Shown piece after piece: positions 1-64,000 of a DNA stretch of 64,000 bases. This stretch comes from Pristiophorus japonicus. Taxonomy: Eukaryota. The stretch lies in the NCBI RefSeq assembly GCF_044704955.1, contig NC_091994.1, positions 90,396,001 through 90,460,000 of the forward strand, in the 5' to 3' direction. The notes under the pieces are model-generated. The model was not told the DNA's origin. It was given only the letters and a program-made list of their open reading frames with translations, and did not search any database. A program made the translations under genes and the position numbers. Position 1 is the stretch's first letter. Each line of letters starts with the position of its first letter.

Positions 1-428
1 GCATTTATATAGTGCCTTTCGTGACCACCGGACATCCCAATGGGCTTTATGGCTAATGAAGTACTTTTTTTTGAAGTGCAGTCACTGTTGTAATGTAGGA
101 AACCCAACAACCAATTTGCACACAGCAAGCTCCCACAAACAACAATGTGATAATGATCAGATAATCTGTTTTTAGTGATGTTGATTGAGGGATAATTGTT
201 GGCTAGGATTCTTCTTCAAATAGTTCCATGGGACTTTTTGCATCCACCTGGGAGCAGCCAGGTCCTCAGTTTTAACATCTCATCTGAAAGACAGTATCTC
301 TGACAGTGCAGCACTCCCTCAGTATTGCACTGGAGTGTCAGCCTAGATTGTTATGCTCAAGACTCTGGAGTGGGACTTGAACTCCAAACCTTCTGATGCA
401 GAGGCGAGTGTGCTGCCAACAAAGCCAC
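1..428 (-). mobile_element. tRNA-derived Deu-type SINE with L2-like 3' tail; head split by a CR1 insertion (last bases at 1870-1884)
   Basis: Reverse complement gives a tRNA-like head (GAGTTCAAGTCCCACTCCAGAG), Deu-like core and the L2-type tail ...GAAAGGCACTATATAAATGC; other copies at 30010-30420 and 33238-33607. Confidence 0.75.
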
Positions 429-1869
429 TTTTTAAAAAAGGAGGGAGAGAGAAAACGGGTAATTATAGACCGGTTAGCCTGACATCAGTAGTGGGGAAAA
501 TGTTGGAATCAATCATTAAGGATGAAATAGCAGCGCATTTGGAAAGCAGTGACAGGATCGGACCGAGTCAGCATGGATTTATGAAAGGGAAATCATGCTT
601 GATGAAGCTTCTGGAATTTTTTGAGGATGTAACTGGTAGAGTGGACAAGGGAGAACCAGTGGATGTGGTGTATTTGGACTTTCAAAAGGCTTTTGACAAG
701 GTCCCGCACAAGAGATTGGTATACAAAATCAAAGCGCATGGTATAGGGGGTAATGTACTGACGTGGATAGAGAACTGGTTGGCAGACAGGAAGCAGAGAG
801 TCGGGATAAACGGGTCCTTTTCAGAATGGCAGGCAGTTACTAGTGGGGTGCCTCAGGGCTCAGTGCTGAGACCCTAGCTCTTTACAATATACATTAACGA
901 TTTGGATGAAGGAATAGAGTGTAATATCTCCAAGTTTGCAGATGACACTAAACTGGGTGGCGGTGTGAGCTGTGAGGAGGATGCTAAGAGGTTGCAGGGT
1001 GACTTGGACAGATTAGGTGAGTGGGCAAATACATGGCAGATGCAGTATAATGTGGATAAATGTGAGGTTATCCATTTTGGGGGCAAAAATACGAAGGCAG
1101 AATATTATCTGAATGGCGACAGACTAGAAAAAGGGGAGGTGCAACGAGACCTGGGTGTCATGGTACATCAGTCATTGAAAGTGGGCACGCAGGTACAGCA
1201 GGTGGTAAAGAAGGCAAATGGTATGTTGGCTTTCATAGCTAGGGGATTTGAATATAGGGGCAGGGAGGTCTTATTGCAGTTGTACAAGGCCCTAGTGAGG
1301 CCTCACCTGGAATATTGTGTTCAGTTTTGGTCTCCGAGTCTGAGGAAGGACGTTCTTGCTATTGAGGGAGTGCAGCAAAGGTTCACCAGACTGATTCCCG
1401 GGATGGCTGGGCTGTCATATGAGGAGCGACTGGATCAGCTGGGCCTTTATTCACTGGAGTTTAGAAGGATGAGAGGGGATCTCATAGAAACATATAAGAT
1501 TCTGACGGGACTGGACAGGTTAGATGCGGGAAGAATGTTCTCGATGTTGGGGAAGTCCAGAACCAGGGGACATAGTCTTAGAATAAGGGGTAAGCCATTT
1601 AGGACTGAGATGAGGAGAAACTTCTTCACTCGGAGAGTTGTTGACCTGTGGAATTCCCTGCCGCAGAGAGTTGTTGATGCCAGTTCATTGGATATATTCA
1701 AGAGGGAGTTAGATATGGCCTTTACGGTTAAGGGGATCAAGGGGTATGGAGAGAAAGCAGGAAAGGGGTACTGAAGGATTGATCAGCCATGATCTTATTG
1801 AATGGCGGTGCAGGCTCGAAGGACCGAATGGCCTACTCCTGCTCCTATTTTCTATGTTTCTATGTTTCT
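429..1869 (+). mobile_element. 5'-truncated CR1 LINE (RT and C-terminus, in-frame TAG at 875-877)
   Basis: Motifs NYRPVSLTS, YLDFQKAFD, GVPQGSVL, FADD, RPHLEY; (TTTCTATG)n tail; AAGCCAC duplicated at 422-428 and 1870-1876. Confidence 0.97.
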
Positions 1870-3137
1870 AAGCCACAGCAGACAAACAAAAAATCTATCA
1901 ATCTCAGTTTTGAAACTTTCAATTGGCCCTCAAGAGCTTTTTGAAGGAGAGCGTGGAAGCTTTCTTGATTTTATATAAGTGCTGAAAAAAACATTGAATT
2001 CACAAAGGACAGCTAAAGATAAAAATGCAACCTTGAAACTAGACTGTTAAAAGGCAAACAAATTGAACGTCTAATTGGGGAAAAAAAGTGTTTGCAATTG
2101 TCTTATGTAGTTTAAATTAACATAATGGGCACAGTGAAATCTCGGCTTTGTTTCAAAGTGCGACAATTGGAAAAGAGATAAAAGACACTCTATGTTGATA
2201 ATGATTTTAAATTATGAGAAAGTTTCACTGCAGTAAAGGAGATTTAAATTTCGGGTTTGAAAACCTTTTCAAAATGGACGGTGCTTATCGAGGAAAAGTC
2301 CCGAACAGTCTAAACAAGCAGGGGAGGGTTTTGAAAATAACAAGGGGAAAAGATCTAACCTATGCGAACTCAGCAAAGGAAGGGTGAAAAAACTGAGAAT
2401 TAGAAAATGTTGCTGAGAGGACAATTATATAAAAAGATGGAACCGGCATGGAAATTTTTGCTTTTGTGCCAAGAGAAATAAAAGACAAGATTTGCTCAGT
2501 GAACGGGACCTTAAAAAACAAAATGCTGGAATGTATATAGCTTGGGTGAAAATGTAAAAAGTGTGGCAGTTTACCTGATTGTTCTGACTATGATTTACAG
2601 AGCTAAGAAAAATAAGCCACAGTTGCCAGTACTTTATTTTAAATTGGATTTCAGTAAACAAAATAGCTATTAAAAATGTGTGGTCTTGTTTTAAATCAAT
2701 TAAAAAAAACCTTTGGCAGATATTTGAATTGGAAGTTTAGAAAAATTAGAGTTTAATCTAAAATGCTATTTTTCCCGATGAGAATGCTTTATTTAAAGCT
2801 GATGACAGCTTTACTAATGATTTCTGCTGTTTTAACGGATTCTTAATTTCTAAGCAAGTTTTGAAGGCACAAAGACCGAAAAAATGATTACGTGAAGCCA
2901 CGTAATGACATCAGGCCTTCTTATAAACCTGCAAAGGCGTTAACCCTTTCCATTGACAGTGGTTTTATACTGGACATTAGTAATTTGGGTTTCTTAATAA
3001 AATAAATGAAATCACAAAAATAGCAGCAGAGACAAAGGGGGAGGAAACACACCCTCATGCAGCTGCCCTGATATGTTTTAGTTGCAATAAGGGGGGAGGC
3101 GAGGCCCCCAACAGGCAAAGAAGGGAGCACCCTTTTT

Positions 3138-4860
3138 CAGTATGTGGATGATATCCTTATTGCCTCCAGTACAGAACAACAACACGTACTAGTTCTAACT
3201 ACAGTGCTAGGAGCTCTACAGAGTGCAGGATTAAAAATAAATCCTAGGAAGGAGCAGTTGGGAAGGAGCGAAGTAACATATCTAGGATACATAATATCAC
3301 AAGGGAAGAGACAGATGCCTGAGGACAGAAAGGCAGCAATCCGATCAATGCCCAGGCTAGGAACTGTGAAAGGGGTCAGGCAGGGCTATTCAACTACTGC
3401 TGAAAAAACAAGCTCTCACAAGTGCTCCAGTCCTGGGATTACCCGACCAGAAAAGGTCCTTCCACATCTGTACCCACCACAGTAAAGATCATTACATGGG
3501 GACTGGCATAGGCCAGTGGCATAGTACTGTTGGGACACATACCCAGCATACCTTAGTAGAATTGCTTAACACAGGAAAGCTAAAAACGGTATCCGGCGCG
3601 CAAAGAGCAAGGTGGGAAGCAACGCTCTTACCCCCTCAACGGGACGGTAACAATAAAAGACAACTGTAACAACCCTGCAGGATGGATCATTACGCAGGGA
3701 GACGAGCATCAGTGTAGCCCGACAGGAGAAGACGAGGGAAGTAGTCAGACTTGAAGAGCCAGACATAGATCTATACGTAGATGGGTCTCGGCGCTATATC
3801 AATGGGACACCACGGATGGGATGAGCCGTGGTAGATTGCAGCGGACAAGTTAGAAGGGAAGGACAGCTAGAAGGGGGCTTATCAGCTCGAGTGGCTGAAT
3901 TGGTGGCTCTCACCGAGGCTCTGAGGATGGCTAAGGGAAAAAGAGTAAACATCTATAGACAGTCGGTATGCTTTTGGAGTAGTGCATGATTATATGATAG
4001 CCTGGAGAAGACGGGGATACATGACCTCAGGAGGAGGGTCAATTAATCATGAGGGGATTGTTAAAAAATTAGTGGAAACCTCCCTCCTATCCCAAGAGTG
4101 TGCGATAATTACCGATCAACATCAACAGGGGCCGAACAAGGGACTGGCGGGATATGGAGGAAAGATGGGAATGTAGTGGCTCCAGAATATATCCAGGGGA
4201 GCCTACAAAATTATACCATGGGTATGTCCATACAGGTAGAACCAACATGATAAGCTCGATGTCCAGATGTTGGTGGTGGAAGGGAATGGATAGAGATATA
4301 GAGGACCACTGTAGAAGGTACCTGACATAGGCAAAATACAACCCAGGGGGGAAAGTAAAGGTCAGAATGGGACATCAGCCCCGGCAGGAAGGACCCTGGG
4401 AAAACTTGCAGATAGATCTTACTGGACCGTTACCCAGCAACAAGGGGAAGACATACTGCCTAGTGATAATACCCCGATGGGGAATGCCACTACAGCTGGA
4501 CTCAGATCAAGGTACACACTTCACAGGGAAGATAATGAAACAGGCCTGCGCTTTACTAGGGATCAGGCAAAAATGAGATTGCCAGAAGTTGTTACAGGAA
4601 GCGAGGACAAAGGACCTGATAAAGACAGGATATGGAGGTTTGTGATGGAACTCTGTAAGCAGTTACATGACTTAAAAGCACAGGCTAGAGATCAGCAAGT
4701 AATCAAGGACTTCGAGAACGACACTAAGGAACAGAAGATCCAAATACCCCAAAGGGACCAATCAGGTGATGGTGAGGATGGTAAGCGCCTGCGTAGTTAT
4801 AAGGGGTATCTGCAAGTGGAAACACTGGACCCAGTTAAAAAACCATGGTCACTAACTAAC
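3138..4860 (+). pseudogene. pol: ERV pol remnant (RT C-terminal part, RNase H, integrase)
   Basis: ORF pieces 3144-3485, 3982-4176 and 4367-4576 carry retroviral RT/RH/IN motifs in order; stops, frameshifts and internal deletions. Confidence 0.9.
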
Positions 4861-4893
4861 AGGTGACAACCGGGAAATATTGTTTTTTTGCAG

Positions 4894-6400
4894 GACTCTA
4901 GTGCTCATGGAAACAATGTGGGGTAACGCAGCCTCATATCAAGGGCAATAGACTGAGGGACGGCAAGGCCTATATTACAGGGACTCGGGTGACATTAGTT
5001 TAATAAAGTATCAAAAACACTGATGGTGATGGATGGAACAACAGTAGACTTAAATAACGGGCATAAAACAACGTAACGAGGAAACAAAACAACATTGGGG
5101 ATGGGCCAGTAATACGGGACCAATAATTCGTGGGAATAAGACCACGGTGTGTTTTATAATCAGGAGGGACAGAGATACTGCACCCGGGGGAAGGGAGTGC
5201 AGATTTCACTCAACATCTGAATGGTGGTGGAGGGATATCTCCCGCGATAGACCCACCAACACGGCCCCACCCACTACTTTAGCAACAGTGAGCACTACCA
5301 GGGCCCTGACCATCACACCCCCAGTGCCACAAACGTGTCCAACTATGAACACTGGGCCAAAAGGCAGATCAAGGATAAGATATACTTCGGGGTACACCAG
5401 TGAATAATTACTGTATTCCTAAATTTAACAGACTTAAAAATCCCCAACTTCTGCGGGTTAAACACTATAAGCCTGTATAAAAACCTGACCCTACGGGCAC
5501 TTAAAGGCCCTGAATCAAAAACCATGACAGATGTGGAAAGAGGGTCAGGTAAAAAGCAGGACCAGGGAAAAAGAGGGATACTAGAAATGGTAAGTGCGGG
5601 ACACGCGGCAGGATACACGGCGGGAGTTGTGACGGTAAACACTATAGATGATCGACTTGACACTCTAACACGAACCTCACGGGATTGTTGGAGAGAAATG
5701 TAGGAGAAAGTCACGTGCGGTACCATGACAATCCAGAAATGTATTGAAGAGAGCAACGGTACTAAGAGTCTCAGCATAGATGATTGTTATAAAAATAACC
5801 AAGTTGCTTTATGTCGAGATCCACTACGAATGATCAAAGATGACTGTGGCTATGACCAAGTGGACGGGTGCTCCTTGAGTATCACCCCCCCAACACAGGA
5901 CTACGAAATTATCGCTGTTCCACGAGGAAATGGAGATTGATGTGTGAACATCACGGCAACTGAAATTAAGAAAGGAACACCTCATGCACCATTATGGATA
6001 CTGACTTCTGGTTTACTCCGCTTGACAAGACAGGTATAAACGGGTTTATTATAACCCCTGAACTAAAGAAGGAAATCATCGATGGTGGACATTACCCGAG
6101 GAGGTTACGCGAAGGCCATTGGGCCGCAAGGTAAACTGATACTCGAACTGAATGAGGAACAAACTCGACTGAATTGGACACAATGGAAGACAATTCGACA
6201 ACATAGAGAAGACCCCAGGTGGAGGAAAGATAGAAGAAACAAAGGATACCCCAGGCGAGGCATAATTCGAACACCGAGAAAATGTTGGCTAGAAAGGACT
6301 TATACATGAACTATGCTGAACTAAATGCACTGGTTGTAGTGCCAGGGAACTCATCTTGCTAGTATTATCCTGTAAAAAATGTAACTTTCGTAAGAGGCAG
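4894..6400 (+). pseudogene. env: ERV env remnant, apparently F-type class I fusion glycoprotein
   Basis: Splice acceptor TGTTTTTTTGCAG ending 4893; QGKR|GILEMVSAGHAAGYTAGVVTVNTID (cleavage site plus fusion peptide, 5563-5648); Cys-rich block 5725-5960; hydrophobic stretch near 6325-6375. Confidence 0.7.
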
Positions 6401-6625
6401 GCCCTAGCCTGTACTATAGTGAAAACATTGAATAAAGGGAATATAGACAGTCCGGCAGAAAGGACTTATTTAGTATAACCTTGATGGGAAAGCCAACAGG
6501 TAGGTCCTACAGCTTGGGAAGTAGCGCTACCCAAGCGAAAGGACAAGCCTGGAAGCTCACCCATGAGGAATTAATTGGGAAATGGCCTGTCTTGGGCATA
6601 TAGTCAAGGGCCATAAGGGGGGAAT

Positions 6626-7291
6626 TGTAAGGGATATATAGAATTGTAGCAGGCAAAGAGCAGACAGATAGGTGGTCAGAACACAATGCTGAAGGTAGTG
6701 AACTAATCAGTATTAGGAGGGTCTGAGGAATTGCCTATGTATGTAACACTTGCTTATGTAGGTATAGCACACTTATAACACATTAAAACTGTATGGTTAA
6801 CCTTAGTAACACTTAAACAGTCAAAGTCAGCAGTTGCAAATTTTGATTAGAAGTCTCTGAGGAAGAGATAAGAAAGCCAGTATTTTGGGAACAGTTACTT
6901 CAGGCGACAGACAAACTGTGGCAAAGTGCAAATGGTGGAACAACACAATTAACATATGATGGGAGATGGACAATTGCATGTACCACTCAGAGCCAGTCTG
7001 ATCAGAGTCGACAAATCAATGTAACTCCGCTGATAGCAATAGACCTATCGATGATTTTGTAGGAGGGTAGCTCCTCTCCAAAACCTGTATAAATGATACT
7101 CGAAACCTCTTGTATTTTGAAGGTTCCACGATTGAACCCTCCCTTGCATTTGCTCGAACTAAAGCCGGTTGAACCCAAGGTTTTGTTTGTATAATTCCAT
7201 GGTCATTATACGGAGGGTGAAGGGCGAGGTGTTGATTAGCTGTCTCAGGTAGTCCACCCCGAGGAAGAGAAGCCTTCTTTTTACCTCAACA
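6626..7291 (+). mobile_element. ERV 3' LTR (666 bp)
   Basis: Begins TGTAAGG right after the PPT, ends CCTCAACA; TATAAA at 7088-7093; variant poly(A) signal ACTAAA at 7158-7163. Confidence 0.8.
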
Positions 7292-31649: not shown

Positions 31650-32388
31650 GTGCCTCAACTCATCCACTGCTGAAACCCTCATCCATTCCATTGTTACCTC
31701 TAGACTTGACTATTCCACGCACTCCTGGCTGGCCTCCCACCTTCTACCCTACATAAACTTGAGGTTATCCAAAACTCGGCAGCCTGTATCCTAATTCGCA
31801 ACAAGTCCTGTTCACCCATCGCCCCTGTACTCGCTGACCTACATTGGCTCCCGGGAAAGCAACACCTCGATTTCAAAATTCTCATCCTGGTTTACAATCC
31901 CTCCATGACATCGCACCTCCCTATCTCTGTAATCTCCTTCAGCCTCACAACTCCTCAAGATATCTGCGCTCCTCAAATTCTGCCCTCTTGAGCATCCCCG
32001 ATTATAATCGCTCAACCATCGGTGGCCGTGCCTTCTGTTGCCTAGGCCCGAAGCTCTGGAACTCCCTCTCTGCCTCTCCACCTCTCTACCTCTCTACCTC
32101 TCTACCTCTCTACCTCTCTACCTCTCTACCTCTCCACCTCTCCACCTCTCCACCTCTCTACCTCTCTACCTTTCCACCTCTCCACCTCTCCACCTCTCCA
32201 CCTCTCTACCTCTCTACCTCTCTTTCCTTCTTTAAGATGCTCCATAAAACCAAGCTTTTGGTCATCTGCCATAATTTCTTCTTATCTGGCTCGGTGTCAA
32301 ATTAATTTTTTTGTCGTATAACACTCCTGTGAAGCCTTGGGATGTTTTGCTACATTAAAGGCGCTATATAAATACAAGTTGTTGTTGT
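31650..32388 (+). mobile_element. L2 LINE 3' fragment
   Basis: ETLIHSIVTSRLDY; tail AAAGGCGCTATATAAATACAAGTTGTTG. Confidence 0.88.
32073..32222. repeat. Simple tandem repeat (CCTCTCTA/CCTCTCCA)n expanded inside the L2
   Basis: Direct 8-bp tandem units. Confidence 0.95.
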
Positions 32389-34058: not shown

Positions 34059-37000
34059 TGTAATGTCTGTAGCTCCATACTGTGGATGCCTGTGTTACTG
34101 CAGCTAGTGTTGTTTTAATAAAGAACAGGTCACCTGAACAGCAGTTCCGAAGTTTCCTGAACCATCTTAAAGGTTGTGTGCTGTGTGCTCTCTGAAGATA
34201 TCACATTTGGTGACGAGAATGGGATGTAATCGGATATTACAAAGCTGAAATTTTTGTTGGTGAAGGATTCAGCCAGCCGACAGAGAGACTTTGAGAGCTT
34301 CTCTGCTTTTGGAAACAGCTACAAATCCGAGGTAAATTACGAGCACACTTGGTTAAACTGCCAGAGTCAAAATGGCTGCCCCTATGGGAGTTAGAGGGCA
34401 TTTGGGGGCATTTCAACGTGACCATGAAAGTTTCAGAGCATATGTGGATTGGCTAGAAATGTTTTTTTACTGCAAATAATATCATCGAAATCCCCGGTAA
34501 TGAAGACAATAACCGGGTTGGAACGGAAAAGAGCTATATTCTTCACTGAGGCCAAGCCCGAGTTGTATGAAACGCTGATAAGTTTGCTTGTGCCTGACAA
34601 GCCAAAGGATACAACGTTGAAACAGATTCTAACTAACTTAGAACAACATTACAGCCCCGTTCCATTAGAAATTGCTGAAAGTTATTGTTTCAGAATACGA
34701 AATCAGAAGGCCAAAGAAAATATCAGTGAGTATATTGTACCATTTTAAAAAAAAGCTATCTATTCACTGTAATTTTGGAGACTTTCAGAGCCAAGCATTG
34801 CGAGACCATTTTGTTTGTGGGATGAGAAATGATGCGATCAGAAGAAAATTATTGACAATGCCTAACTTGACTTTTTATTTAGCTTATCAGACAGCGAGGT
34901 CGATGAGCATGGCCGGCCAATATTCCGAAGAATTTCATACTAATTTCAGTCATCAGACAACCGAGGTGAATCGCCTGCAGGTTCAAAGTAAAAGACGGTG
35001 GGGCCCCAAAGTCTCAGAAACTGGAAATGGGAAAAGAGCATTGACGTCTTGCTATCGGTGCCTGGGACAACACATTGCTCAAAGTTGTCCATATGTGAAG
35101 GCAGAGTGTTTCTTCTGCAGGAAAATTGGGTATCTTGCAAAGGCTGAAGGGTAAACCAGTTTTCAAAGCTATGAGTAGAAATCCCCAGAGACTACATAGC
35201 ATGGAAGAACAACAACAGGATGAGGAGATGTTAGAGTTACACGTCATTAGGAGCACGAGGTTAGCGGACGGCGATTCGAAAAGTATCATAATCCACAGAG
35301 ATGTTGCAGGATTCAAGATACCCATGGAAATTGACACTGGTGCATCCGTGAGTGTAGTACTGGAGTCACTATACCTTTTACAAATTGCGGGATTTCCCAT
35401 TGGAGAAAGCCAAGATAGAGCTGCGAGACTACTCGGGAGAGAACATTCCGGTGGTAGGTCGTATCACTGTACCGGTGAAATACAAGGATCAAGTTCAGAG
35501 CTTGCCTCTAGTAGTAGTGGCAGGAGACAAGCCTGCTTTACTAGAAAGAAATTGGTTGGGATCACTGAAGCTGGATTGGAATGAGATTTTTCGTGTTGAA
35601 ACGAGATTTGCGTCAAAGGATGATGTCATCAAGAATTATCCAAAGATGTTCTGCGAAATGGGCAGTCCGATCCAAGGCTTCATGGCGAGTGTCAGGATAC
35701 AGAAGGATGCAAGATCAGTTTACTGCAAGCCATGTTCCGTACCATATGCACTCTGAGAAAGTTGAGCAAGAACTCAAAAGACTAGAGACTGAGAACATTA
35801 TTTCTAAGATAAGATCGATGTAATTGGGCTACACCCATTGTTGTTGTACCTAAGTCCGATGGTAAGATAAGATTGTGTGGTGATTATAAAGTAACTGTAA
35901 ACCAGGTTCTAGAGGGTAATGTTCCCAATACATTGCCAAATATAGAAGATTTGTTCACAACACTGACGGGGTCAGATTTTCTCAAAGTTGGATCTTACGA
36001 ATGCCTACTTACAGCTTGAACTAAATGAGGAGTCCCAATCATGCTTGACTATAAATACCCATCTAGGCCTATATCAATTTAATAGACTTCCATTTGGAGT
36101 GTCTTCCTCCCCTGCCATATTCCAAGGGGTAATGGACCAGATTTTGCAAGGTATTGAAGGGATAGTATGTTATTTAGATGACATACTAATTTCAGCACCA
36201 AATAGGCAAATTCATAATAACATATTAGAAACATAGAAAATAGGTGCAGGAGTAGGCCATTCGGCCCTTCAAGCCTGCACCACCATTCAATAAGATCATG
36301 GCTGATCATTCCCTCAGTACCCCTTTCCTGCTTTCTCTCCATACCCCTTGATCCCTTTAGCTGTAAGGGCCATATCTAACTCTCTGTTGAATATATCCAA
36401 TAAACTGGCATCAACAACTCTCTGTGGCAGGGAATTCCACAGGTTAACAATTCTCTGAGTGAAGAAATTTCTCCTCATCTCAGTCCTAAATGGCCTACCC
36501 CTTATCCTAAGACTGTGTCCCCTGGTTCCAGACTTCCCCATCATTGGGAGCATTCTTCCCGCATCTAACCTGTCCAGTCCAGTCAGAATCTTGTAAGTTT
36601 CCATGAGATCCCCTCTCATCCTTCTAAACTCCAGTTGATCCAGTCTCTCCTCATATGTCAGTCCCGCCATCCCAGGAATCAGTCTGGTGAACCTTCGCTG
36701 CACTCCCGCAACAGCAAGAATGTCCTTCCTCAGATTAGGAGACCAAAACTGAACACAATATTCCAGGTGAGGCCTCACCAAGGCCCTGTACAACTGCAGT
36801 AAGGCCTCCCTGCTCCTATACTCAAATCCCCTAGCTATGAAGGCCAACATACCATTTGCCTTCTTCACCGCCTGCTGCACCTGTATGCCAACTTTCAATG
36901 ACTGATGAACCATGACACCCAGGTCTCGTTGCACCTCCCCCTTTCCTAATCTACCGCCATTCAGATAATATTCTGCCTTTGTGTTTTTGCCCACAAAGTG

Positions 37001-40000
37001 GATAACCTCACATTTATCCACATTATACTGCATCTGCCATGCATTTGCCTACTCACCTAACCTGTCCAAGTCACCCTGCAGCCTTTTAGTGTCCTCCTCA
37101 CAGCTTACACCATCACCCAGTTTAGTGTCATCTGCAAACCTGGAGATATTACATTCAATTCCTTCATCTAAATCATTAATGTATAGTGTAAAGAGCTGGG
37201 GTCCCAGCACTGAGCCCTGTGGTACCCCACTAGTCACTGCCTGCCATTCTGAAAAAGACCTGTTTATCCCGACTCTCTGCTTCCTGTCTGCCAACCAGTT
37301 CTCTATCCACGTCAGTACATTACTCCCAATACCATGTGTTTTGATTTGGCACACCAATCTCTTGTGTGGGACGTTGCTTAATGCCTTTTGAAAGTCCAAA
37401 TACACCTCATCCACTGGTTCTCCCTTGTCCACTCTACTAGTTACATCCTCAAAAAATTCTAGAAGTTTTGTCAAGCATGATTTCCCTTTCATAAACCCAT
37501 GCTGACTTGGACCGATCCGGTCACTGCTTTCCAAATGCGCAGCTATTTCATCCTTAATAATTGATTCCAACATTTTCCCCACTACTGATGTCAGGCTAAC
37601 CGGTCTATAATTACCCGTTTTCTCTCTCCCTCCTTTTTTAAACAGTGGTGTTACATTAGCTACTCTCCAGTCCATAGAAACTGATCCAGAGTTGATAGAC
37701 TGTTGGAAAATGATCACCAATGCATCCACTATTTCTATGGCCACTTCCTTAAATACTCTGGGATGCAGACTATCAGGCCCTGGGGATTTATCGGTCTTCA
37801 ATCCGATCAATTTCCCTAACACAATTTCCTGCTTTATAAGGATATCCTTTAGTTCCTCCATCTCACTAGACCCTCGGTCCCCTAGTATTTCCGGAAGGTT
37901 ATTTGTGTCTTCCTTCGTGAAAACAGAGCCAAAGTATTTGTTTAACTGGTCTGCCATTTCTTTGTTCCCCATTATAAATTCACCTGAATCTGACTGCAAG
38001 GGACCTACGTTTGTTTTCACTAATCTTTTTCTCTTCACATATCTATAGAAGCTTTTGCTGTCAGTTTTTATGTTCCCAGCAAGCTTCCTCTCATACTCTA
38101 TTATCCCCCTCCTAATTAAACCCTTTGTCCTCCTCTGCTGTGTTACAAAATTCTCCCAGTCCTCAAGTTTGCTGCTTTTTCTGGCCAATTTATATGCCTC
38201 TTCCTTGGATTTAACACTATCCTTAATTTCCCTTGTTAGTCACGGTTGAGCCACCCTCCCCATTTTATTTTTACTCCAGACAGGGATGTACAATTGTTGA
38301 AGTTCATCCATGTGATCTTTAAATATTTGCCATTGCCTATCCACCGTCAACCCTTTAAGTATCACTTGCCAGTCTATTCTAGCCAATTCACGTCTCATAC
38401 CATCGAAGTTACCTTTTCTTAAGTTCAGGATCCTAGTCTCTGAATTAACTGTGTCACTCTCCATCTTAATAAAGAATTCTACCATATTATGGTCACTCTT
38501 CCCCAAGGAGCCTCGCACAACAAGATTGTTAATTAGTTCTTTCTCATCACACATCACCCAGTCTAGGATGGCCAGCCCTCTAGTTGGTTCCTCGACATAT
38601 TGGTCTCGCAAACCATCCCTAATAAACTCCAGGAAATCCTCCTCCACTGCATTGCTACCAGTTTGGTTAGCCCAGTCAATATGTAGATTAAAGTCGCCCA
38701 TGATAACTGCTGTACCTTTATTGCACGCATCCCTAATTTCTTGTTTGCTGTCCCCAACCTCATTACTACTGTTTGGTGGTCTGTACACAACTCCCACTGG
38801 CATTTTCTGCCCTTTGGTATTCCGTAACTCCACCCATACAGATTCCACATCATCCAAGCTAATGTCCTTCCTTACTATTGCATTAATTTCCTCTTTAACC
38901 AGCAACGCTACCCCACCTCCTTTTCCTCTCTGCCTATCCTTCCTAAATGTTGAACCCTGTATGTTGAGTTCCCAGCCTTGGTCACCCTGGAGCCATGTCT
39001 CCGTGATGCCAATTACATCATATCCATTAACTGCTATCTGCGCTGTTAATTCGTCCACCTTATTCCGAATACTCCTCGCATTGAGGCACAGAGCCTTCAG
39101 GGTTTTTTTTAACACCCTTTGCCCCTTTAGGATTTTGCTGTAATGGGGCCCCTTTTTGCTTTTTGCCTTGGGTTTCTCTGCTCTCCACTTTTACTATTGA
39201 ATGAAGTCCTCAAATGGCTAGAGAAGCACAGAGTATGAATGTCTGCTCGCAAGTGTGAGTTATTTCAAAACTCAGTGGAGTACTTAGGGTACAGAGTAGA
39301 CAAAGATGGTTTACATCCAACCAAGAAAAAACTGGATGCAATCAGAAATGCACCCAATCCCAAGAATGTCACTGAACTTCAATCATTTTTGGGTCTTTTG
39401 AACTATTATAGGAAGTTCCTACCAAATTTGGCTACAGTATTACATCCGCTGAGTGACCTATTGAAAAAACAGGTCCATTGGAAGTGGTCAAAAGAATGCA
39501 ACACAGCATTCAAGGAGTTTAAAAGCAATTTGGTAGAAAGCACCATGTTAGTTCACTGACATATCTCAGGAAATCATGCTAGCATGTGATGCCTCTCCAT
39601 ATGGAGTTGGGGCAGTAATCTCTCATGTATTATGTAGTGGGGAGGAGAGACCAATTGCTTTTGCTTCACGCACTCTCAGTGCCAGTGAGTGTAATTATGC
39701 GCAAATCGAAAGGGAAGCTTTGGCATTAATTTTTGGGGTCAAGAAGTTCCACAAATACTTGTATGGTCGTAAGTTTACTCTCGTTACGGACCATAAGCCC
39801 CTGACAGCAATCCCCCATCCAAAGTCCCCACTTCCAACATTAGCTGCAGCACGAATGCAGAGATGGGCTTTGATTTTGTCAGCATATAAATATGATACAG
39901 ACAATCAGCTGATCACAGTAATGTTGATGCTATGTCTAGATTGCCTTCCCTATCACAAGTTACACCCGATAGGGAAGAAGTGTTCTATTTTTCATACATT

Positions 40001-41704
40001 GATGAACTGCCAGTCATAGCTGAAGAGATTGGTAGAGCAACCAAACGTGACCCAGTTATGTCAAAGGTGTATGATTATATTGCAAATGGATGGCCAAACC
40101 AGGTAACAGACAAAGATATTCATCCATTCTTCATTCGTAGGAATGAATTATCAGTCGATAAAGATTGTATCATGTGGGGTGCAAGAGTGGTTATACCAAA
40201 TAAATTCAGGTCCAAATTATTAGGAAACCTCCATGACTAGCACCTGGGAATGTACTTGACAAGAGTTTTGCACGCAGTTACTTATGGTGGCCAGGTCTTG
40301 ATAAAGATATAGAGTACATCGTGAGTCAGTGTACGACATGTCAATCGGTAAGCAAGCAACCACCATCAGTACCATTACTGCCATGGAAATGGCCTCTTAG
40401 AGTGTGGCAAAGGCCACATATTGATTTTGCTGAGCTCGAAGGACAACAATTGTTCATTGTGATTGACAGCCATTCGAAGTGGGTCGAGGTGTTTCCAATG
40501 TGGAAAATAACAACAATGTGGAAAATAGACAGTTTGCGAATATTATTTTCTTCAGATGGCCTCCCAGAAGAAATTGTTTCAGATAATGGACCACAATTTA
40601 GTTCAGAAGAATTTGCACAGTTCACGAGCAAAAATGGTGTGAAACATACCAAGGTTCCACCGTACCAACCTGCTTCGAATGGTGCAGCAGAGTGCACTGT
40701 ACAAATTGTAAAACCTGCCCTCATAAAACAAATGTTGGATCCAAATCCAAATCCAGTTGTCATTGGACCACAAATTGACTAATTTTCTAATAATGTATCG
40801 TAATACTCCTCACACAACTACTGGTAGAACACCAGCAGAGTTGTTTCTCAAACGACAGCCACAAACCAGATTCTCGTTGTTAAAACCAAATTTGGCACAG
40901 TCCGTAGAAGAGACACAATTAAGACAGAAAGAGAATCATGATAGAGGTAGAGTAAAAGAGAGAAGTGTGAAATTAAATCAGAAGGTGAGAGTGAAGATCC
41001 ATCACCATAAATGGGTAAAGTGGTTACCAGGAAGAGTGGTGAAGATATGTGGTCCTCGCACATATTTGGTCAAGATGTTTGATAAAAAACAGGTTAGGTT
41101 TGTTCACATTGATCATATTTTACCCACAGACATAGAAGTAGTTGAAGATGGGAGTGATTCAATTATTTCTGACTCATCAGATAGTTTTGATACACCAGTA
41201 GCAAATCCTACATCCAATGTACTGGAAACAAATCCAAGAGAAAGTCAGAATTTAAGTCTGAGTCCGAGTCAGGAAAACAAACAGTCTGAAGTTAGAGACA
41301 GTTCAAATGGAAATCAAGGGCATCCCTTGGAGGTAAACTTCCCTCAGGATCAGCCTCAAATGAGTTTAAATTCGACACCATGGTTGGAAGGTTCTGTTCG
41401 AGAGCGAAGGTATCCTCTTCGAAACAGAAAACAAGTGGTCAAGTTTGATTTGTAAATATGGCAAAATAAGTCCATATCCTTTGTTATGTATAACCATGCA
41501 AGTTATATATGATGATTGTTTGTTATACTAACTCTTCATTAAGGAGGGAGGTGTAATGTCTGTAGCGCTACACTGTGGACACCTGTGTTACTGCAGCTAG
41601 TGCTGTTTAATAAAGAGCAGGTCACCTGACCAGCAGGTCAGAAGTTTCCGGAACCTGCAGCCATCTTACAGGTTGTGTGTTGTGCGCTCTCTGAAGATAT
41701 CACA
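34059..41704 (+). mobile_element. Full-length defective Gypsy LTR retrotransposon (Mag-like), copy A1
   Basis: LTRs 34059-34205 and 41552-41704 (TG...CA); 5-bp TSD ATTGC on both sides; PBS TGGTGACGAGAATGGGAT similar to the complement of tRNA-Ser(GCU); PPT AAGGAGGGAGG; gag zinc knuckles, DTGA protease, YLDD RT, CDAS RNase H, SDNGPQF integrase. Confidence 0.97.
36227..39194 (-). mobile_element. CR1 (whole ORF2, disrupted) inserted in the RT of A1
   Basis: ORFs 38240-39115, 37049-38188 and 36314-37033; TATT duplicated at 36223-36226 and 39195-39198. Confidence 0.97.
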
Positions 41705-46101: not shown

Positions 46102-49100
46102 TGTAATGTCTGTAAGCTTGTAATGTTTGTAGCCCCACACTGTGGATGGGGACGTATTGTGTACTGCAACTGCAGAGTTAATAATAAACAGAACCAGGCA
46201 GATTCTGGAGGCTTCCGAGAGAGCTGCCTGCCATGTTAGGAGCTGTGTGTGCTGTGCTATGTGAAAAAAAATCACCTTTGGCGATAAGATGGGATTTTTC
46301 GGATGATTTAAAGCTTAAATTTTGTTGGGGAAGGATTCAGCCAGCCGACAGAGACTTTGGACGTTTCTGTCTTTGGAACAAAGCTACAAAATCCGAGGTA
46401 AAATACAACACACGGTGTGAACAGCTAGAGATTAAAATGGCAGGTGCAATCGGACATTTGGGGGAATATAGACATGACCGGGAACATTTTAAAACGTATG
46501 TGGATCAGCTAGAAATGTATTTCACTGCAAATAACATAATCGAAGTTCCAGACAATGCAGTCCAGAACCGGGCTGTGTTGGAACATAAGAAAACGACCTT
46601 CTTATCGGTGGTGGGTCCGGCATTGTATGATACCCTTGTAAATCTGCTTGTGCCTGACGAGCCAAAAGACACAACGCTTAAAGAGATTTTAACGAAGCTG
46701 GAGCAGTACTATAACCCCAAACCGTTAGAAATTGCTGAAAGCTATCGTTTTTGGATTTGGAATCAAAAGAATGATGAAAGTATCAGTGATTCCATCGCAG
46801 CATTAAATAAGCTATCGATGCACTGTCATTTTGGAAACTTTCAAAACCGAGCATTACGGGATCATTTTGTTTGTGGGGTGAAAAATAAGATGATCAGAAG
46901 GAAGTTATTGACGATGGATGACTTGACTTTTGAGATTTGCTTGTCAGACAGCGAGATCGATGGGCATGGCCGAACAATATTCCCAAGAATTAAATAATAA
47001 TTACGGTCGTCATTCAACTGAGGTAAATCACCTGCAGGTTCAAGGTAAAAGACGGTGGGGGCCCAAAGTCTCAGAAACTGGAAATTCTAACAGAGCGTCG
47101 AAATCGTGCTATCGGTGCCTGGGACAACACATTGCTCAAAGTTGTCCATACGTGAAAGCAGAGTGTTTCTTCTGCAGAAAGACTGGGCATCTTGCGAAGG
47201 CATGCCGACTGAAGGGTAAACCAGCTTTTAAAGTTATAAATCCAGCGTTCAAAGCTATGAGTAGAAATCCCAAGCGACTACATAGCATGGAAGAACAACA
47301 ACAGGACGAGGAGATGTTAGAGTTAAACGTCATCAGGAGCACGAGGTTAACGGACAGCGATTCGGAAAGCATCAAAATCCACATAGATGTTGCGGGATTT
47401 AAGATACCAATGGAAATTGACACAGGTGCATCCGTGAGTGTAGTACCGGAGTCGCTGTACCTCGACAAATTGCGGGATTTCCAACTGGAGAAATCCAAGA
47501 TAGAGCTGCGAGGCTACTCGGGAGAGATAATTCCTGTGGTAGGTCATATCACCGTACCAGTGAAATATAAAGATCAATTTCAGAACTTGCCTCTAATAGG
47601 AGACAAGCCTGCCTTACTAGGAAGAAATTGGTTGAGCTCACTGAAGCTTGATTGGAGTAAGATTTTCTCTATGGAAGCGAGATTTTCATCAACAGCTGAG
47701 GTTATCAAGAAGTATCTGAAGGTGTTCTGCGAAACGGGCAGTCCGATCTAAGACTTCAAGGCGAGTGTCAGGGTACAGAAGGACGCTAGATCGGTTTACT
47801 ACAAGCCACATTCTGTACCATATGCACTCAAGGAGAAAGTTGAGCAAGAACTCAAAAGACTAGAGACTGAGAACATTATTTGTAAGATAGATCGATGTAA
47901 TAGGGCTACACCCTTTGTTGTTGTACCTAAGTCCGATGGTAAGGTAAGATTGTGTGGTGATTATAAAGTAACCGTAAACCAGGTTCTAGAGGGTAATGTC
48001 CCCAATACATTGCCGAATATAGAAGATTTGTTCACAATACTGACAGGTGGTCAGATCTTCTCAAACTGGATTTTACGAATGCCTACTTACAGCTTGAACT
48101 AGATGAGGAGTCCAAGTCATGTTTGACTATAAATACTCATCTAGGCCTATATCAATTTAATAGGCTACCGTTTGGAGTGTCTTCCGCCCCTGCCAAGGGG
48201 TGATGAACCAGAGTTTGCAAGGTATTCAAGGTATGTATTTGGATGACATACTAATTTCAGCACCAAATAGGCAAATTCATAATAACATATTGAATGAAGT
48301 CCTCAAACGGCTAGAGAAGCACAGAGTACGAGTGTCTGCTCGTAAGCGTGAGTTATTTAAAAACTCAGTGGAGTACTTAGGGTACAGAGTTTACATCCAA
48401 CCATGGAAAAATTGGATGCAATTAGAAATGCACCAACTCCCAGGAATGTCACTGAACTTCGTTCATTCTTGGGTCTTTTGAACTATTATGGGAAGTTCCT
48501 ACCAAATTTGGCGACAGTATTACATCCACTGAATGAACTTTTGCAAAAACAGGTCCATTGGCATGTTGGCCTTCATAGCGAGGGGATTTGAGTACAGGGG
48601 CAGGGAGGTGTTGCTACAGTTGTACAGGGCCTTGGTGAGGCCACACCTGGAGTATTGTGTACAGTTTTGGTCTCCTAACTTGAGGAAGGACATTCTTGCT
48701 ATTGAGGGAGTGCAGCGAAGATTCACCAGACTGATTCCCGGGATGGTGGGACTGATCTATCAAGAAAGACTGGATCAACTGGGCTTGTATTCACCGGAGT
48801 TCAGAAGAATGAGAGGGGACCTCATAGAAACGTTTAAAATTCTGACGGGTTTAGACAGGTTAGATGCAGGAAGAATGTTCCCAATGTTGGGGAAGTCCAG
48901 AACCAGGGGTCACAGTCTAAGGATAAGGGGTAAGCCATTTAGGACCGAGATGAGGAGAAACTTCTTCACCCAGAGAGTGGTGAACCTGTGGAATTCTCTA
49001 CCACAGAAAGTAGTTGAGGCCAATTCACTAAATATATTCAAAAGGGAGTTAGATGAAGTCCTTACTACTCGGGGGATCAAGGGGTATGGCGAGAAAGCAG

Positions 49101-51470
49101 GAAGGGGGTACTGAAGTTTCATGTTCAGCCATGAACTCATTGAATGGCGGTGCAGGCTAGAAGGGCTGAATGGCCTGCTCCTGCACCTAGTTTCTATGTT
49201 TCTATGTTTCTATTGGAAGTGGTCAAAAGAATGCGATACAGCATTCAAGGAGTGTAAAAGCAAATTGGTAGAGAGCACCATGTTAGTTCACTATGACATA
49301 TCTAAGGAGATTAAGCGCATGTGATGCCTCTCCGTATGGAGTTGGGGCAGTGATCTCTCATGTATCATGTAGTGGGGAGGAGAGACCAATTGCTTTTGCT
49401 TCACGCACTCTCAGTGCCAGTGAGAGTAATTATGTGAAAATTGAAAGGGAAGCTTTGATATTAATTTTTGGGGTCAAGAAGTTTCACAAATACTTGTATG
49501 GTCATAAGTTTACCATCGTTATGGACCATAAGTCCCTAACAGCAATCCTCCATCCAAAGTCCCCAGTTCCAACATTAGCTGCAGCCCGAATGCAGAGATG
49601 GGCTTTGATTTTGCCAGCGTATACATATGATATTGAATACAGACGATCAGCTGATCACAGTAATGCTGATGCAATGTCTAGATTGCCTTCCCTATCACAA
49701 ATTACACCCGATAGGGAAGAAGTGTTTTATTTTTCATACATTGATGAACTGCCAGCCACAGCTGAAGAGATTGGTAGAGCAACCAAACGTGACCCAGTGA
49801 TGTCAAAGGTGTATGATTATATTGCAAATGGATGGCCAAACCAGGTAACAGACAAAGATACCCATCCATTCTTCATTCATAGGAATGAATTATCAGTCGA
49901 TAAAGATTGTATCATGTAGGGTGCAAGAGTGGTTATACCAAATAAATTCAGGTCCAAATTATTAGGAGACCTCCATGACCAGCACCTGGGAATGTGCTTG
50001 ATGAAGAGTTTTGCACGCAGTTATTTATGGTGGCCAGGTCTTGATAAAGATATAGAGTACATCGTGAGTCAGTGTACGACATGTCAATCGGTAAGCAAGC
50101 AACCACCACCAGTACCATTACAGCCGTGAAAATGGCCTCCCAGGGTGTGGCAAGGCTTCATATTGATTTTGCTGAGTTAGAAGGACAACAATTGTTCATT
50201 GTGATTGATAGCCATTAGAAGTGGGTTGAGGTGTTTCCAATGTGGAAAATAACAACAAGTAAAACATTGGACATTTTACAAAAGTTATTTTCTTCATTTG
50301 GCCTCCCTGAAGAAATTGTTTCGGATAATGGACCACAATTTCGTTCAGAAGAATTTGCACAATTCACGAGCAAAAATGGTGTGAAACATACCAAGGTTCC
50401 ACCATACCACCCTGCTTCGAATGGTGCAGCAGAGCACACTGTACAAATTGTAAAACGTGCCCTCATAAAACAAATGTTAGATCCAAATCCAAGGAAACGA
50501 CAGTTGTCATTGGATCACAAATTGGCTAATTTTTTTATTACATATCGAAATACTCCTCATACAACTACTGGTAGAACACCAGCAGTGTTGTTTCTCAAAC
50601 GACAGCTACGAACCAGATTCTCGTTATTAAAACCAAATTTGGCACAGTCCGTAGAAGAGACACAATTAAGATAGAAAGAGAATCATGATAGAGGTAGAGT
50701 AAAAGAGTGAAGTGTGAAATTAAACCAGAAGCTGAGAGTGAAGAACCATCACCATAAATGGTTAAAGTGGTTACCAGGAAGAGTGGTGAAGATATGTGGT
50801 CCTCGCACATATTTGGTAAAGATGTTTGATAATGGGCAGGTTAGGTTTGTTCATATTGATCATATTTTACCTACAGACATGGAAGGAATTGAAGGTGGGA
50901 ATGATTCAATTATTTCTGACTCATCAGTTAGTTTTGATACACCAGTAGCAAATCCTAAATCCAATGTATTGGAAACAAATCCAGGAGAGAATCAGAATGA
51001 AAGTCTGAGTCCGAGTCAGGAAAACAAAGAGCCTGAAGTTAGTGAGTTCAAATGAAAATCAAGGAAATTCCGTAGAGGAAAATGTTCCTCAGGATGAACC
51101 TCAAATGAGTTTAGATTCGACACCAGGTTTGGAAGGTTCTGTTCGAGAGCGAAGGTATCCTCTTCGAAACAGAAAACAAGTGGTAAAGTTAAATTTGTAA
51201 ATATGGAAAAAAATAAGTCTATATCCTGTGTTATGTATAAACATGAAAGTTATGTATGATGTTTGTTATAATAACTTCTTCATTAAGGAAGGAGAAGTGT
51301 AATGTCTGTAAGCTTGTAATGTTTGTATCTCCACACTGTGGATGTGGACGTATTGTGTACTGCAACTGCAGAGTTAATAATAAACAGAACCAGGCAGATT
51401 CCGGAGGCTTCCGAGAGAGCTGCCTGCCATGTTAGGAGCTGTGTGTGCTGTGCTCTGTGAATATATCACA
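46102..51470 (+). mobile_element. Full-length defective Gypsy LTR retrotransposon (Mag-like), copy A2
   Basis: LTRs 46102-46276 and 51298-51470; TSD GGTAT/AGTAT; PBS TGGCGATAAGATGGGAT; PPT AAGGAAGGAGAAG; two CCHC knuckles, DTGA, YLDD, RH and IN motifs. Confidence 0.97.
48562..49211 (+). mobile_element. 5'-truncated CR1 inserted in the pol of A2
   Basis: ATTGG duplicated at 48557-48561 and 49212-49216; (TTTCTATG)n tail. Confidence 0.96.
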
Positions 51471-62867: not shown

Positions 62868-64000
62868 AGTTTCATGTTCAGCCATGAACTCATTGAATGG
62901 CGGTGCTGGCTCGAAGGGCCGAATGGCCTACTCCTGCACCTATTTTCTATGTTTCTATGTTTCTACCGTGGATCTGTCCTCCTCTGCAACATGGTGTTTT
63001 GCAGGATTAGCAGGGTTTGCAGCTCGCCTGCACATGTGTTGGAGGTGTCCCTTTGTTCCAAGCCCTTGCAAGCGTATCCTTTGAAGCTGCATGAATGGGA
63101 TTGATGATCACCCCGAGCGCCAACAAGGTGTTAATTGCCTTGCATTCACCAGCCTTGATGCCGGACTCTGAGTCATCTGCGGACGTGCAGCTGCAGGCGT
63201 GTAAATCTGCCCTGTACATTTCGATTCGAAAACAACGTTACTTTGTTCACAGTACTTGCAGCAGCACTAGTGTGCTGGGAAATGTGTTTGGTATTGTCAC
63301 TGGTGACGATAAACGCCTGGGCTATCGCTATGGCTTTACTCAAGGTTGGGGTCTCTACAGTCAAAAGTTTGCGAAGTATTACCTCATGGCCAGTGCCAAG
63401 TACAAAGAAGTCCCTGAGCATGTACTCGAAGTGTCCTTCAAATTCACAATGTCCTGCCAGTCGCCTTAACTCGGCGACGTTGCTCGCCACTTCTTGGCCT
63501 TTAGACCTCTTGTACTTGTAGAACCGGTACCTTGCCATCAGAACGCTTTCCTTCGGGTTTAGATGCTCCTGGACCAGTGTACACAACTCATCGTATGACT
63601 TGTCTGTGGGTTTTGCTGGAGCGAGCAGGTTTTTCATGAGGCCATACGTTGATGCCCCGCAAATGGTGAGGAGGATCGCCATTCATTTGGCAGCATTCCC
63701 TTCTCCTTCCAGCTCGTTGGACTTGACCAATACTTCCAGCCACGAAGTATTGGTCAAGTCGCTCCATGAAGGTTTCCCTATCATCTCCCTCTAAAAATTT
63801 CTCCAGGATGCCCACAGTTCTCTGCATTGTTGCGGTGGGGTTTGTCATCTGTATCTCGTCGCCAGTTGTTATGTCTTGAATAAAGAGTCAGACTACATAC
63901 TGCAAGCTCAAAGTAAATGTGACCGTAGTCCTTTATTACAGATCTCAGAGTGCCTCTCCAGCCTGTGAGGCCTCTTTATATACAGGTGCTCCCAAGGGAT

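What the first reader, a model, noticed from the sequence alone, without database searches (positions are those of the whole stretch)
3068..7291. ERV combining an epsilon-like pol with an apparently F-type (non-gamma) envelope
Seen: retroviral pol motifs (YVDD, DSRYAFGVVHDY..WRRRG), a splice acceptor, then IITVFLNLTDLKIPNFC...QGKR|GILEMVSAGHAAGYTAGVVTVNTID. The CAG codon could be a CpG-decayed CGG, restoring an RGKR furin site. A Cys-rich block lies after the fusion peptide (SIDDCYKNNQVALC...DDCGYDQVDGC...GNGD*CV), and I see no CXXC, immunosuppressive domain or CX6CC. Known: gamma/epsilon Envs carry ISD plus CX6CC, while a post-fusion-peptide Cys-rich domain is the layout of paramyxo/pneumovirus F, errantivirus Env and lokiretrovirus Env. 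Inference: a retroviral lineage with a swapped F-like envelope, in a probable cartilaginous fish. This is the best candidate for an undescribed system in the window.
Basis: partly seen in the sequence, partly recalled or inferred. Interest (0 to 1): 0.75.

Follow-up and report, generated by a model that had tools for sequence, protein, structure and literature searches.

The report
Shark retrovirus with measles-type fusion envelope
This is a dead, deleted copy of a many-copy shark retrovirus, likely related to snakehead fish retrovirus, whose envelope lacks the usual retroviral marks and is predicted to fold like the fusion protein of measles- and RSV-type viruses, a pairing I did not find in print.

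Summary
The motifs and the LTR (6626-7291) are real. The window holds one decayed copy of a large endogenous retrovirus family. Relatives show that this copy lost about 433 bases of env at 5707/5708, a deletion shared by 49 of 96 loci examined. The lost stretch is heptad repeat and beta strands, not an ISD or CX6CC; natural open env frames of sister families lack those marks too. An AlphaFold model of a sister Env (pLDDT 54) matches only paramyxovirus/pneumovirus F and foamy Env in the listed PDB hits, so the F-type call holds. The pol is not a true epsilon and not lokiretrovirus: its RT is closest to snakehead retrovirus (counted by eye), its RNase H is MLV-like, and its primer is tRNA-Ser. 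A recent swap is not shown: five pol lineages in this genome carry this Env, relatives occur in five shark species, and walleye epsilonretrovirus Envs also matched the model. This scan noted the same pairing in four other shark or ray genomes. Verdict: new variant of a known kind.

The parts
1950..2990 (+). Long AT-rich (34% GC) 5' leader of the provirus family; 5' LTR and primer-binding site are missing in this copy
   Evidence: 75-91% DNA match to the region between 5' LTR and gag in L061, L063, L064, L073, L128, L130; GC
2990..3125 (+). Remnants of the two ends of gag; about 1.2 kb of gag is missing
   Evidence: Window 2884-3027 and 3093-3125 map to either end of the gag region of L127
3119..3384 (+). 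C-terminal half of reverse transcriptase, YVDD at 3141-3152; protease and the N-terminal half of RT are missing (about 1.1 kb)
   Evidence: RVT_1 E 2e-12; map to L127
3370..3666 (+). Tether (degenerate RNase H) domain, broken
   Evidence: RT_RNaseH_2 E 0.001
3750..4128 (+). RNase H, MLV-like, frameshifted; DSRYAFGVVHDY from 3958
   Evidence: RNase_H; sister-family RNase H scores 94 bits to MLV and 34 to foamy
4199..4860 (+). Integrase, with internal deletions near 4470 and 4572
   Evidence: Integrase_H2C2 E 5e-7, rve E 8e-6; gaps against other copies
4881..4893 (+). Splice acceptor in front of env
   Evidence: Sequence; same acceptor in sister families; one contig joins leader donor to env acceptor, GT..AG, in family D
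4894..5403 (+). Env N-terminal part: hydrophobic leader, Cys-containing domain, Thr/Pro-rich linker; broken by stops and frameshifts
   Evidence: Three-frame reading against natural open frames of L113/L111
5404..5574 (+). F2-like segment ending at the cleavage position; the basic motif is incomplete in this copy
   Evidence: 50% identity to L113 Env 217-309; 26 of 60 copies read R-x-K/R-R here
5575..5707 (+). Predicted fusion peptide and start of heptad repeat A
   Evidence: Alignments A1, A2
5707..5708 (+). Junction of a deletion of about 433 bases that removes most of heptad repeat A and the following beta strands
   Evidence: Same junction in 49 of 96 distinct loci, about 433 extra bases in 29
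5708..5960 (+). Cys-rich block, predicted F domains I/II
   Evidence: 51% identity to L113 Env 476-551; fold of sister Env
6067..6400 (+). Remnants of heptad repeat B, transmembrane helix and tail, with further deletions
6615..6624 (+). Polypurine tract
   Evidence: Sequence; same tract before the 3' LTR of paired-LTR copies
6626..7291 (+). 3' LTR, TG...CA, 666 bases

Best explanation
The window holds a dead, multiply deleted copy of a shark endogenous retrovirus family whose pol is likely of the snakehead-retrovirus-like lineage and whose Env lacks ISD and CX6CC and is predicted to have the paramyxovirus/pneumovirus F fold. The ancestral virus would have primed reverse transcription on tRNA-Ser (shown as PBS complementarity in relatives), made Env from a spliced message joining a donor upstream of gag to the acceptor before env (inferred; one contig joint in a sister family), and entered cells with a furin-cleaved F-type trimer: signal, small N-terminal Cys domain on a Thr/Pro stalk (likely receptor binding; untested), F2-like strand and helix, cleavage site, fusion peptide, heptad repeat A, beta-rich Cys domains, heptad repeat B, membrane anchor. 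The window's subfamily kept multiplying after it lost about 433 bases of env (shown by a shared junction), so it likely spread inside the germ line or on helper proteins without a working Env of its own. The Env-pol pairing is old rather than a recent swap.
For: Multi-copy family: 40 of 40 scored DNA hits at 85-92% besides the window itself, 1263 candidates. Deletion shared by 49 of 96 distinct loci, 45 of the 49 matching the junction 24-mer within 5 mismatches. No CX6CC or ISD in any long env frame of L131-L180 or in alignment A1; no TLV_coat hit for env frames, while TLV_coat finds 78 other loci in the same genome. Model of family-D Env: all 39 listed PDB Foldseek rows are F proteins (38) or foamy Env (1), best E 3.7e-8; VIA ranks 1-13 are F or foamy Env, Z 8.3 to 5.9, e.g. 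hMPV F Z 8.1, rmsd 6.0, 270 aligned; ESM Atlas first hits Fusion_gly 0.94 and Baculo_F 0.93. The only PF00523 match in the genome (E 0.0055, below cut-off) is a member of this Env family. RT identities counted by eye over 139 positions against the printed alignment of PMC7947760: SnRV 68, WDSV 55, feline foamy 53, Loki-Lca 50. RT core 149 bits to MLV vs 144 to foamy; RNase H 94 vs 34. PBS matches a tRNA-Ser(TGA) gene of G000 at 17 of 18 bases in L111. Env tree and RT tree both split (A,B,D) from (C,E), weakly.
Against: The good model is of family D, only 29% identical to family B and linked to the window's Env by BLAST E 3e-8 and by profile; its pLDDT is 53.6, pTM 0.36, TM-scores under 0.4 and VIA Z only about 8. 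The model of the closer family B had pLDDT 40.9, one Foldseek match at E<=0.001 and only helical bundles at the top in VIA. ESM 'recognition' was below its threshold. No sequence-level hit to any F protein in Pfam or PDB. The SnRV placement rests on a by-eye count; no tree with named references was built, and the in-genome trees leave the base unresolved. The window's own RT fragment does not discriminate SnRV from WDSV (23 vs 21 of 56, by eye).
Confidence: 0.8

Rival explanations
1. It is simply an ordinary member of the snakehead-retrovirus clade, and SnRV's own Env is already F-type, so nothing was swapped and only the fold recognition is new.
For: RT nearest SnRV; SnRV-like ERVs are known from elephant shark (PMC4422223, part 1 of 2 read); avian Ovex1, with SnRV-related gag/pol, has an Env-like ORF without CWLC, ISD or CX6CC (PMC2717909 passages), and the best unnamed ESM cluster is an 874-aa chordate protein, the length of zebra finch Ovex1 ORF3 (length match only); earlier scan note e1-8042254 says so.
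Against: No hit named SnRV among the 50 listed rows of either BFVD search (some rows are unnamed); SnRV-like pols also carry gamma-type Env in this genome and in print (bioRxiv 2021.11.23.469661 passages); PBS here is Ser, SnRV's is Arg (recalled). This rival is compatible with most of the best explanation and mainly lowers novelty.
Confidence: 0.4
2. A canonical retrovirus took an F-type env from a lokiretrovirus, a foamy virus or a negative-strand RNA virus in one recombination.
For: A related RT lineage in the same genome has gamma-type Env, so at least one exchange occurred; Env swaps are common in anamniote ERVs (bioRxiv 2021.11.23.469661 passages).
Against: Five families with RTs only about 45-65% identical share the Env type and their trees agree weakly; F-carrying RTs as one clade are not rejected (AU p 0.35); no donor is identifiable: F proteins match at 9-15% identity only and the Env profile does not match the genome's foamy Envs beyond a short helix. 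The gamma-type lineage may equally be the recipient.
Confidence: 0.3
3. It is a true epsilonretrovirus-type element, with the same kind of Env as WDSV and WEHV.
For: WDSV and WEHV1 Env match the model at E 1e-7 over about 570 columns; RNase H is MLV/epsilon-like; weak MLVIN_C hit, E 0.003, in family D.
Against: RT motifs (NS.VWPV.KPD, LDIANGFW, YVDD) follow SnRV, not WDSV; identity to WDSV Env is 13-14%, no better than to arthropod-virus F; Env is about 730 aa against 1159-1317; no Gag_p30 hit.
Confidence: 0.1
4. It is a lokiretrovirus, the first from a cartilaginous fish.
For: F-like Env with furin site, fusion peptide, coiled coils and TM is the loki layout (PMC7947760).
Against: Loki RTs read CPFG[YL]xNSP and IYVDD, this family reads PQGFHNSP and QYVDD; RNase H is MLV-like, while loki RNase H groups with foamy (PMC7947760); the loki screen included C. 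punctatum and S. torazame, which hold this Env family, and reported 0 of 3 for Orectolobiformes.
Confidence: 0.03
5. The Env is a gamma-type Env that lost ISD and CX6CC by deletion.
For: The window copy does have a large env deletion just after the fusion peptide.
Against: The deleted stretch, read in undeleted copies, has neither motif; full natural frames of four families have neither.
Confidence: 0.02

Closest known systems
Snakehead retrovirus (SnRV) and SnRV-like ERVs, incl. CmiERV lineage I of elephant shark (PMC4422223, part 1 of 2 read)
   Same: Closest RT among printed references (68 of 139 by eye); YVDD; RT between class I and foamy; MLV-like RNase H; zinc-knuckle Gag; shark host for the clade; Env N-terminus from an exon upstream of gag (SnRV feature recalled).
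   Different: tRNA-Ser primer (SnRV Arg, recalled); no accessory ORFs looked for; SnRV Env type could not be tested; no paper found that calls an SnRV-like Env F-type.
Lokiretroviruses (PMC7947760, parts 1-3 of 4 and supplement part 68 read)
   Same: F-like Env with cleavage site, fusion peptide, coiled coils and TM; tether plus RNase H.
   Different: RT motifs and RNase H group differ; not reported from cartilaginous fish; loki Env hits PF00523 by sequence, these Envs barely do.
Foamy viruses (PMC11468914, passages)
   Same: Env with the paramyxo/pneumo F core (8rm0 Z 8.1, rmsd 6.5, 263 aligned).
   Different: No Foamy_virus_ENV hit; zinc-knuckle Gag; MLV-like RNase H; the genome's foamy-Env ERVs form a separate RT branch.
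Walleye epsilonretroviruses WDSV/WEHV (PMC9967133, PMC3758190, passages)
   Same: Non-gamma Env; their predicted Envs match the model.
   Different: RT less similar (55 of 139), YMDD, Env nearly twice as long, 13-14% identity.
Ovex1 of birds (PMC2717909, passages)
   Same: SnRV-related gag/pol and a spliced Env-like ORF lacking CWLC, ISD and CX6CC.
   Different: Single co-opted locus without zinc finger; fold not assigned; homology to this Env not tested.
XtERV-S (PMC8278194, passages)
   Same: Class III pol with tRNA-Ser primer.
   Different: Has dUTPase and a gamma-type TM with ISD and CX6CC.

Membership tests
Gamma-type Env | ISD in TM | tested here: not met
   No ISD in long env frames or alignment A1
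Gamma-type Env | CX6CC in TM with CXXC in SU | tested here: not met
   0 CX6CC in frame; six-frame scan gave scattered, non-recurring hits in 13 of 21 undeleted loci, while TLV_coat controls gave hits in 30 of 30 with one recurring motif in the 6 printed. Isolated CXXC strings occur in some frames of families C and D.
Gamma-type Env | TLV_coat (PF00429) match | tested here: not met
   No hit for env frames; positive control 78 loci in G000
Paramyxo/pneumo F-type fusion protein | F fold (domains I-III, two heptad repeats) | tested here: met
   Sister-family model; low-confidence model, closer family inconclusive
Paramyxo/pneumo F-type fusion protein | Basic cleavage site followed by fusion peptide | tested here: met
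   26 of 60 copies read R-x-K/R-R; conserved in all families
Paramyxo/pneumo F-type fusion protein | Sequence match to Fusion_gly (PF00523) above cut-off | tested here: not met
   Best genome match 26.4 bits, cut-off 29.8; none
Paramyxo/pneumo F-type fusion protein | Trimer that fuses membranes | not testable with these tools
   No functional data
Lokiretrovirus | RT in the loki clade, sister to other retroviruses | tested here: not met
   Motifs and by-eye identity 50 of 139 vs 68 for SnRV; no named tree
Lokiretrovirus | RNase H grouping with foamy viruses | tested here: not met
   94 bits MLV vs 34 foamy
Lokiretrovirus | CGIN1-like integrase | not tested
   No CGIN1 or loki integrase in hand
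Lokiretrovirus | F-like Env | tested here: met
Epsilonretrovirus (WDSV/WEHV) | RT clustering with WDSV/WEHV/Xen-1 | tested here: not met
   By-eye identity 55 of 139 vs 68 for SnRV; motifs differ
Epsilonretrovirus (WDSV/WEHV) | Non-gamma 'epsilon' Env | tested here: inconclusive
   Structural match E 1e-7 but 13-14% identity
Epsilonretrovirus (WDSV/WEHV) | Accessory genes (cyclin, orf b, orf c) | not tested
   No ORF between env and LTR or before gag was seen in L111/L113; no dedicated search
SnRV-like ERVs | RT clustering with SnRV | tested here: inconclusive
   Nearest by eye and by motif; intermediate MLV/foamy scores; tree with SnRV not built
SnRV-like ERVs | Env start from an exon upstream of gag (recalled for SnRV) | tested here: inconclusive
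   Annotated P0008 N-terminus maps to the leader; one contig joint GT..AG, depth 5, 27 letters on the short side, run kind not on record
SnRV-like ERVs | Env homologous to SnRV Env | not testable with these tools
   No SnRV Env sequence was returned by any tool
Foamy viruses | Foamy_virus_ENV match, Gag without zinc knuckle | tested here: not met
   No PF03408 hit on env frames; zf-CCHC present

The most novel reading that the evidence does not exclude
The F-type fusogen is the ancestral envelope of canonical retroviruses: kept in foamy viruses, in this large SnRV-like shark radiation and in walleye epsilonretroviruses, and replaced later by gamma-type Env. That would explain the long-unclassified WDSV/WEHV Env and undo the view that loki and canonical retroviruses gained unrelated envelopes independently.
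Probability: 0.3. Interest if true: 0.8.

Novelty: new variant of a known kind. Interest (0 to 1): 0.52.

Why it matters
F-type Env is in print for lokiretroviruses and foamy viruses only; surveys of fish ERV envelopes searched with gamma- and beta-type queries and would miss this class. Here it sits on canonical pols in at least five families of one shark genome and has relatives in five shark species from both main shark lineages. With the walleye Env match it makes the origin of retroviral Env testable by structure-guided trees. The window copy itself is dead and has no function of its own.

Tried and rejected
Word-index protein searches found nothing for single Env queries and only 2 known hits with profile A1. 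PDB sequence searches with Env gave no meaningful hit. Viral contigs held no RT relative, so no named retrovirus could be fetched. The family-B model was too poor for VIA. RT and IN trees did not resolve the base; one row labelled foamy (L290) fell among gypsy integrases and was mislabelled, and the 'gypsy' labels rest on Pfam domain content of three such frames. AU tests rejected none of three groupings. No RNA holder listed; contig depths were not used. Three papers wanted for the SnRV and epsilon Env type were not held. Ten literature searches found no paper describing an F-type Env on an SnRV-like or epsilon pol; subscription journals and Repbase are not covered, bioRxiv supplements were closed, and the PMC7947760 supplement is held cut. 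Scan look-ups by sequence, by place and a second by words returned nothing.
Full report
Observation. The LTR runs exactly 6626-7291 with TG...CA ends and a polypurine tract; a genome search gives 3054 candidates, 40 scored, at 89-93% identity. The env stretch has 1263 candidates, the 39 other scored copies at 85-92%. The genome is 5.9 Gb; a protein labelled Pristiophorus japonicus matches it at 100%, so the host is likely that sawshark.

State of this copy. The element starts near 1950 with a long AT-rich leader shared with paired-LTR copies; the 5' LTR and primer site are gone and a LINE fragment stands there. About 1.2 kb of gag and 1.1 kb of protease and RT are missing, integrase has internal deletions, and every gene has stops or frameshifts. 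In env, about 433 bases are missing at 5707/5708. Of 96 distinct loci with both flanks, 49 share the window's junction, 29 have about 433 more bases, 4 about 78 more and 14 other lengths (the sample is biased by the queries). The deleted form therefore multiplied after it lost the core of its fusion machinery, likely by copying within the germ line or on helper proteins (inference). LTR pairs of seven family-A copies differ by K2P 0.052-0.112 and six family-B copies by 0.020-0.088; that is 12-25 million years at a mammalian rate or 118-255 at the shark rate assumed in PMC4422223, so the age is poorly fixed.

The envelope. The deleted stretch, read in a natural frame of L071, is heptad repeat and beta strands with no ISD or CX6CC. 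Searching with it found a sister family B (64%) with natural open env frames of 730-731 aa. A full HMMER search gave 10 proteins, all from sharks of five species; three of them led to three more families in G000, here C, D and E. All align in one layout: hydrophobic leader, variable Cys domain, Thr/Pro linker, conserved F2-like strand and helix, R-x-K/R-R, fusion peptide, long heptad repeat, a conserved C..YG.W...HNL..P.WI block, Cys-rich region, second heptad repeat, TM. No frame hits TLV_coat, Foamy_virus_ENV or Fusion_gly, while TLV_coat finds 78 loci and Foamy_virus_ENV 21 elsewhere in the genome. The window's Env aligns to family B at 50-51% on either side of the deletion.

Fold. A model of family B was poor (pLDDT 40.9). 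A model of family D on 48 sequences reached 53.6, with blocks of 70-88 in the beta domains. Foldseek against the PDB gave 101 matches at E<=0.001; all 39 listed are RSV, parainfluenza, henipavirus or NDV F, or foamy Env. VIA, independent of Foldseek, ranks F proteins and foamy Env 1-13 with Z 8.3-5.9 before unrelated helices at 5.0. BFVD gives 41 matches at E<=0.001: negative-strand virus glycoproteins, baculovirus F, paramyxovirus F, feline foamy Env, and WDSV and WEHV1 Env. ESM features point to Fusion_gly and Baculo_F, with recognition below threshold. The single PF00523 match in the genome is a member of this Env family. The F-type call is well supported for the family, and carried to the window copy by homology.

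The pol. Pol of the family scores best to MLV over RT plus RNase H, but the RT core is level between MLV and foamy (149 vs 144 bits) while RNase H is MLV-like (94 vs 34). Against the printed RT alignment of PMC7947760, family-B RT shares 68 of 139 positions with SnRV, 55 with WDSV, 53 with feline foamy virus and 50 with a lamprey lokiretrovirus (counted by eye, first two alignment blocks, L113 and L111); family-A copies carry the same motifs. Loki RTs have CPFG..NSP where these have PQGFHNSP. The primer site of relatives matches a tRNA-Ser(TGA) gene.

Swap or inheritance. In-genome trees put the window with A and B (99/98), then D (90/90); C and E form a second branch (98/90); the gamma-Env family and the foamy-Env elements join at an unresolved base. 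The Env tree makes the same split weakly (69/58). Neither one clade of F carriers nor their union with the gamma-Env family is rejected (AU p 0.35 and 0.38). So at least one Env exchange happened in this group, but its direction is open, and the F pairing is old: family D Env has 52-73% relatives in Heterodontus, Mustelus and Chiloscyllium.

Expression route. The family-B env frame has no start codon before its hydrophobic leader, and an annotated family-D protein takes its first 16 residues from the leader upstream of gag. One contig in one of three runs of unrecorded kind joins that donor to the env acceptor with GT..AG ends (depth 5, 27 letters on the short side, likeness 88). This is a weak hint of a spliced env message in a sister family, not of expression of the window copy.

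What is known. F-like Env is described for lokiretroviruses (PMC7947760, parts 1-3 of 4 and supplement passages) and foamy viruses (PMC11468914, passages). SnRV-like ERVs are known from elephant shark (PMC4422223, part 1 of 2). Walleye Envs are called distinct and uncharacterised (PMC9967133, PMC3758190, passages; bioRxiv 2021.11.23.469661, parts 1-2 of 6 and passages). Ovex1 has an SnRV-related backbone and an Env-like ORF without gamma marks (PMC2717909, passages). PMC9040795 (passages) prefers independent Env gains for loki and canonical retroviruses. PMC13524379, PMC12690878, PMC8278194, PMC4977317 and bioRxiv 2024.03.17.585361 were seen as passages and do not describe this pairing. Ten searches found no paper on an F-type Env with an SnRV-like or epsilon pol. 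Four earlier notes of this scan report the same pairing in other shark or ray genomes; they are unchecked AI notes, read after I had reached the SnRV reading.

Verdict. Real, and more than a single oddity: a broad shark radiation of canonical retroviruses with an F-fold envelope. The window copy is a dead, env-deleted member. New variant of a known kind; interest 0.52, held down by the prior loki and foamy cases, the untested SnRV Env and the low-confidence model, and held up by the walleye Env match and its bearing on where retroviral Env came from.

Noticed in passing
(BFVD A4GTG3, Q9WHI8): Predicted Envs of walleye dermal sarcoma virus and WEHV1 match the shark F-type model (E about 1e-7, 560-580 columns); reviews call these Envs distinct and uncharacterised, so they may be F-fold.
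   Followed up: partly
(ESM Atlas, unnamed cluster): Best unnamed hit (0.89) is an 874-aa chordate protein, the length of zebra finch Ovex1 ORF3; length match only.
   Followed up: no
L250-L259: ERVs with an SnRV-like RT and similar RNase H but a gamma-type (TLV_coat, CX7CC) Env in the same genome.
   Followed up: partly
L182, L183, L189, L264: F-Env families C and E carry an RNase H only about 30% identical to that of families A/B/D and the gamma-Env family, suggesting an RNase H exchange.
   Followed up: partly
L270-L296: Foamy-Env endogenous elements in G000 (21 matches to PF03408), decayed.
   Followed up: partly
window 347-1870: 3' part of a CR1-like LINE (label recalled from its RT tail) that lies where the provirus's 5' LTR should be; further copies at 36226-38954, 48547-49213, 58543-62965.
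   Followed up: no
window 39582-41053 and 49317-50800: Two 90-96% identical copies of a stretch with gypsy-like integrase similarity.
   Followed up: no
L063, L064, L073, L077: A second env-deleted subfamily with a different junction (about 78 bases longer than the window's).
   Followed up: partly
window 32033-32262: An 8-base CT-rich tandem array of about 20 copies.
   Followed up: no
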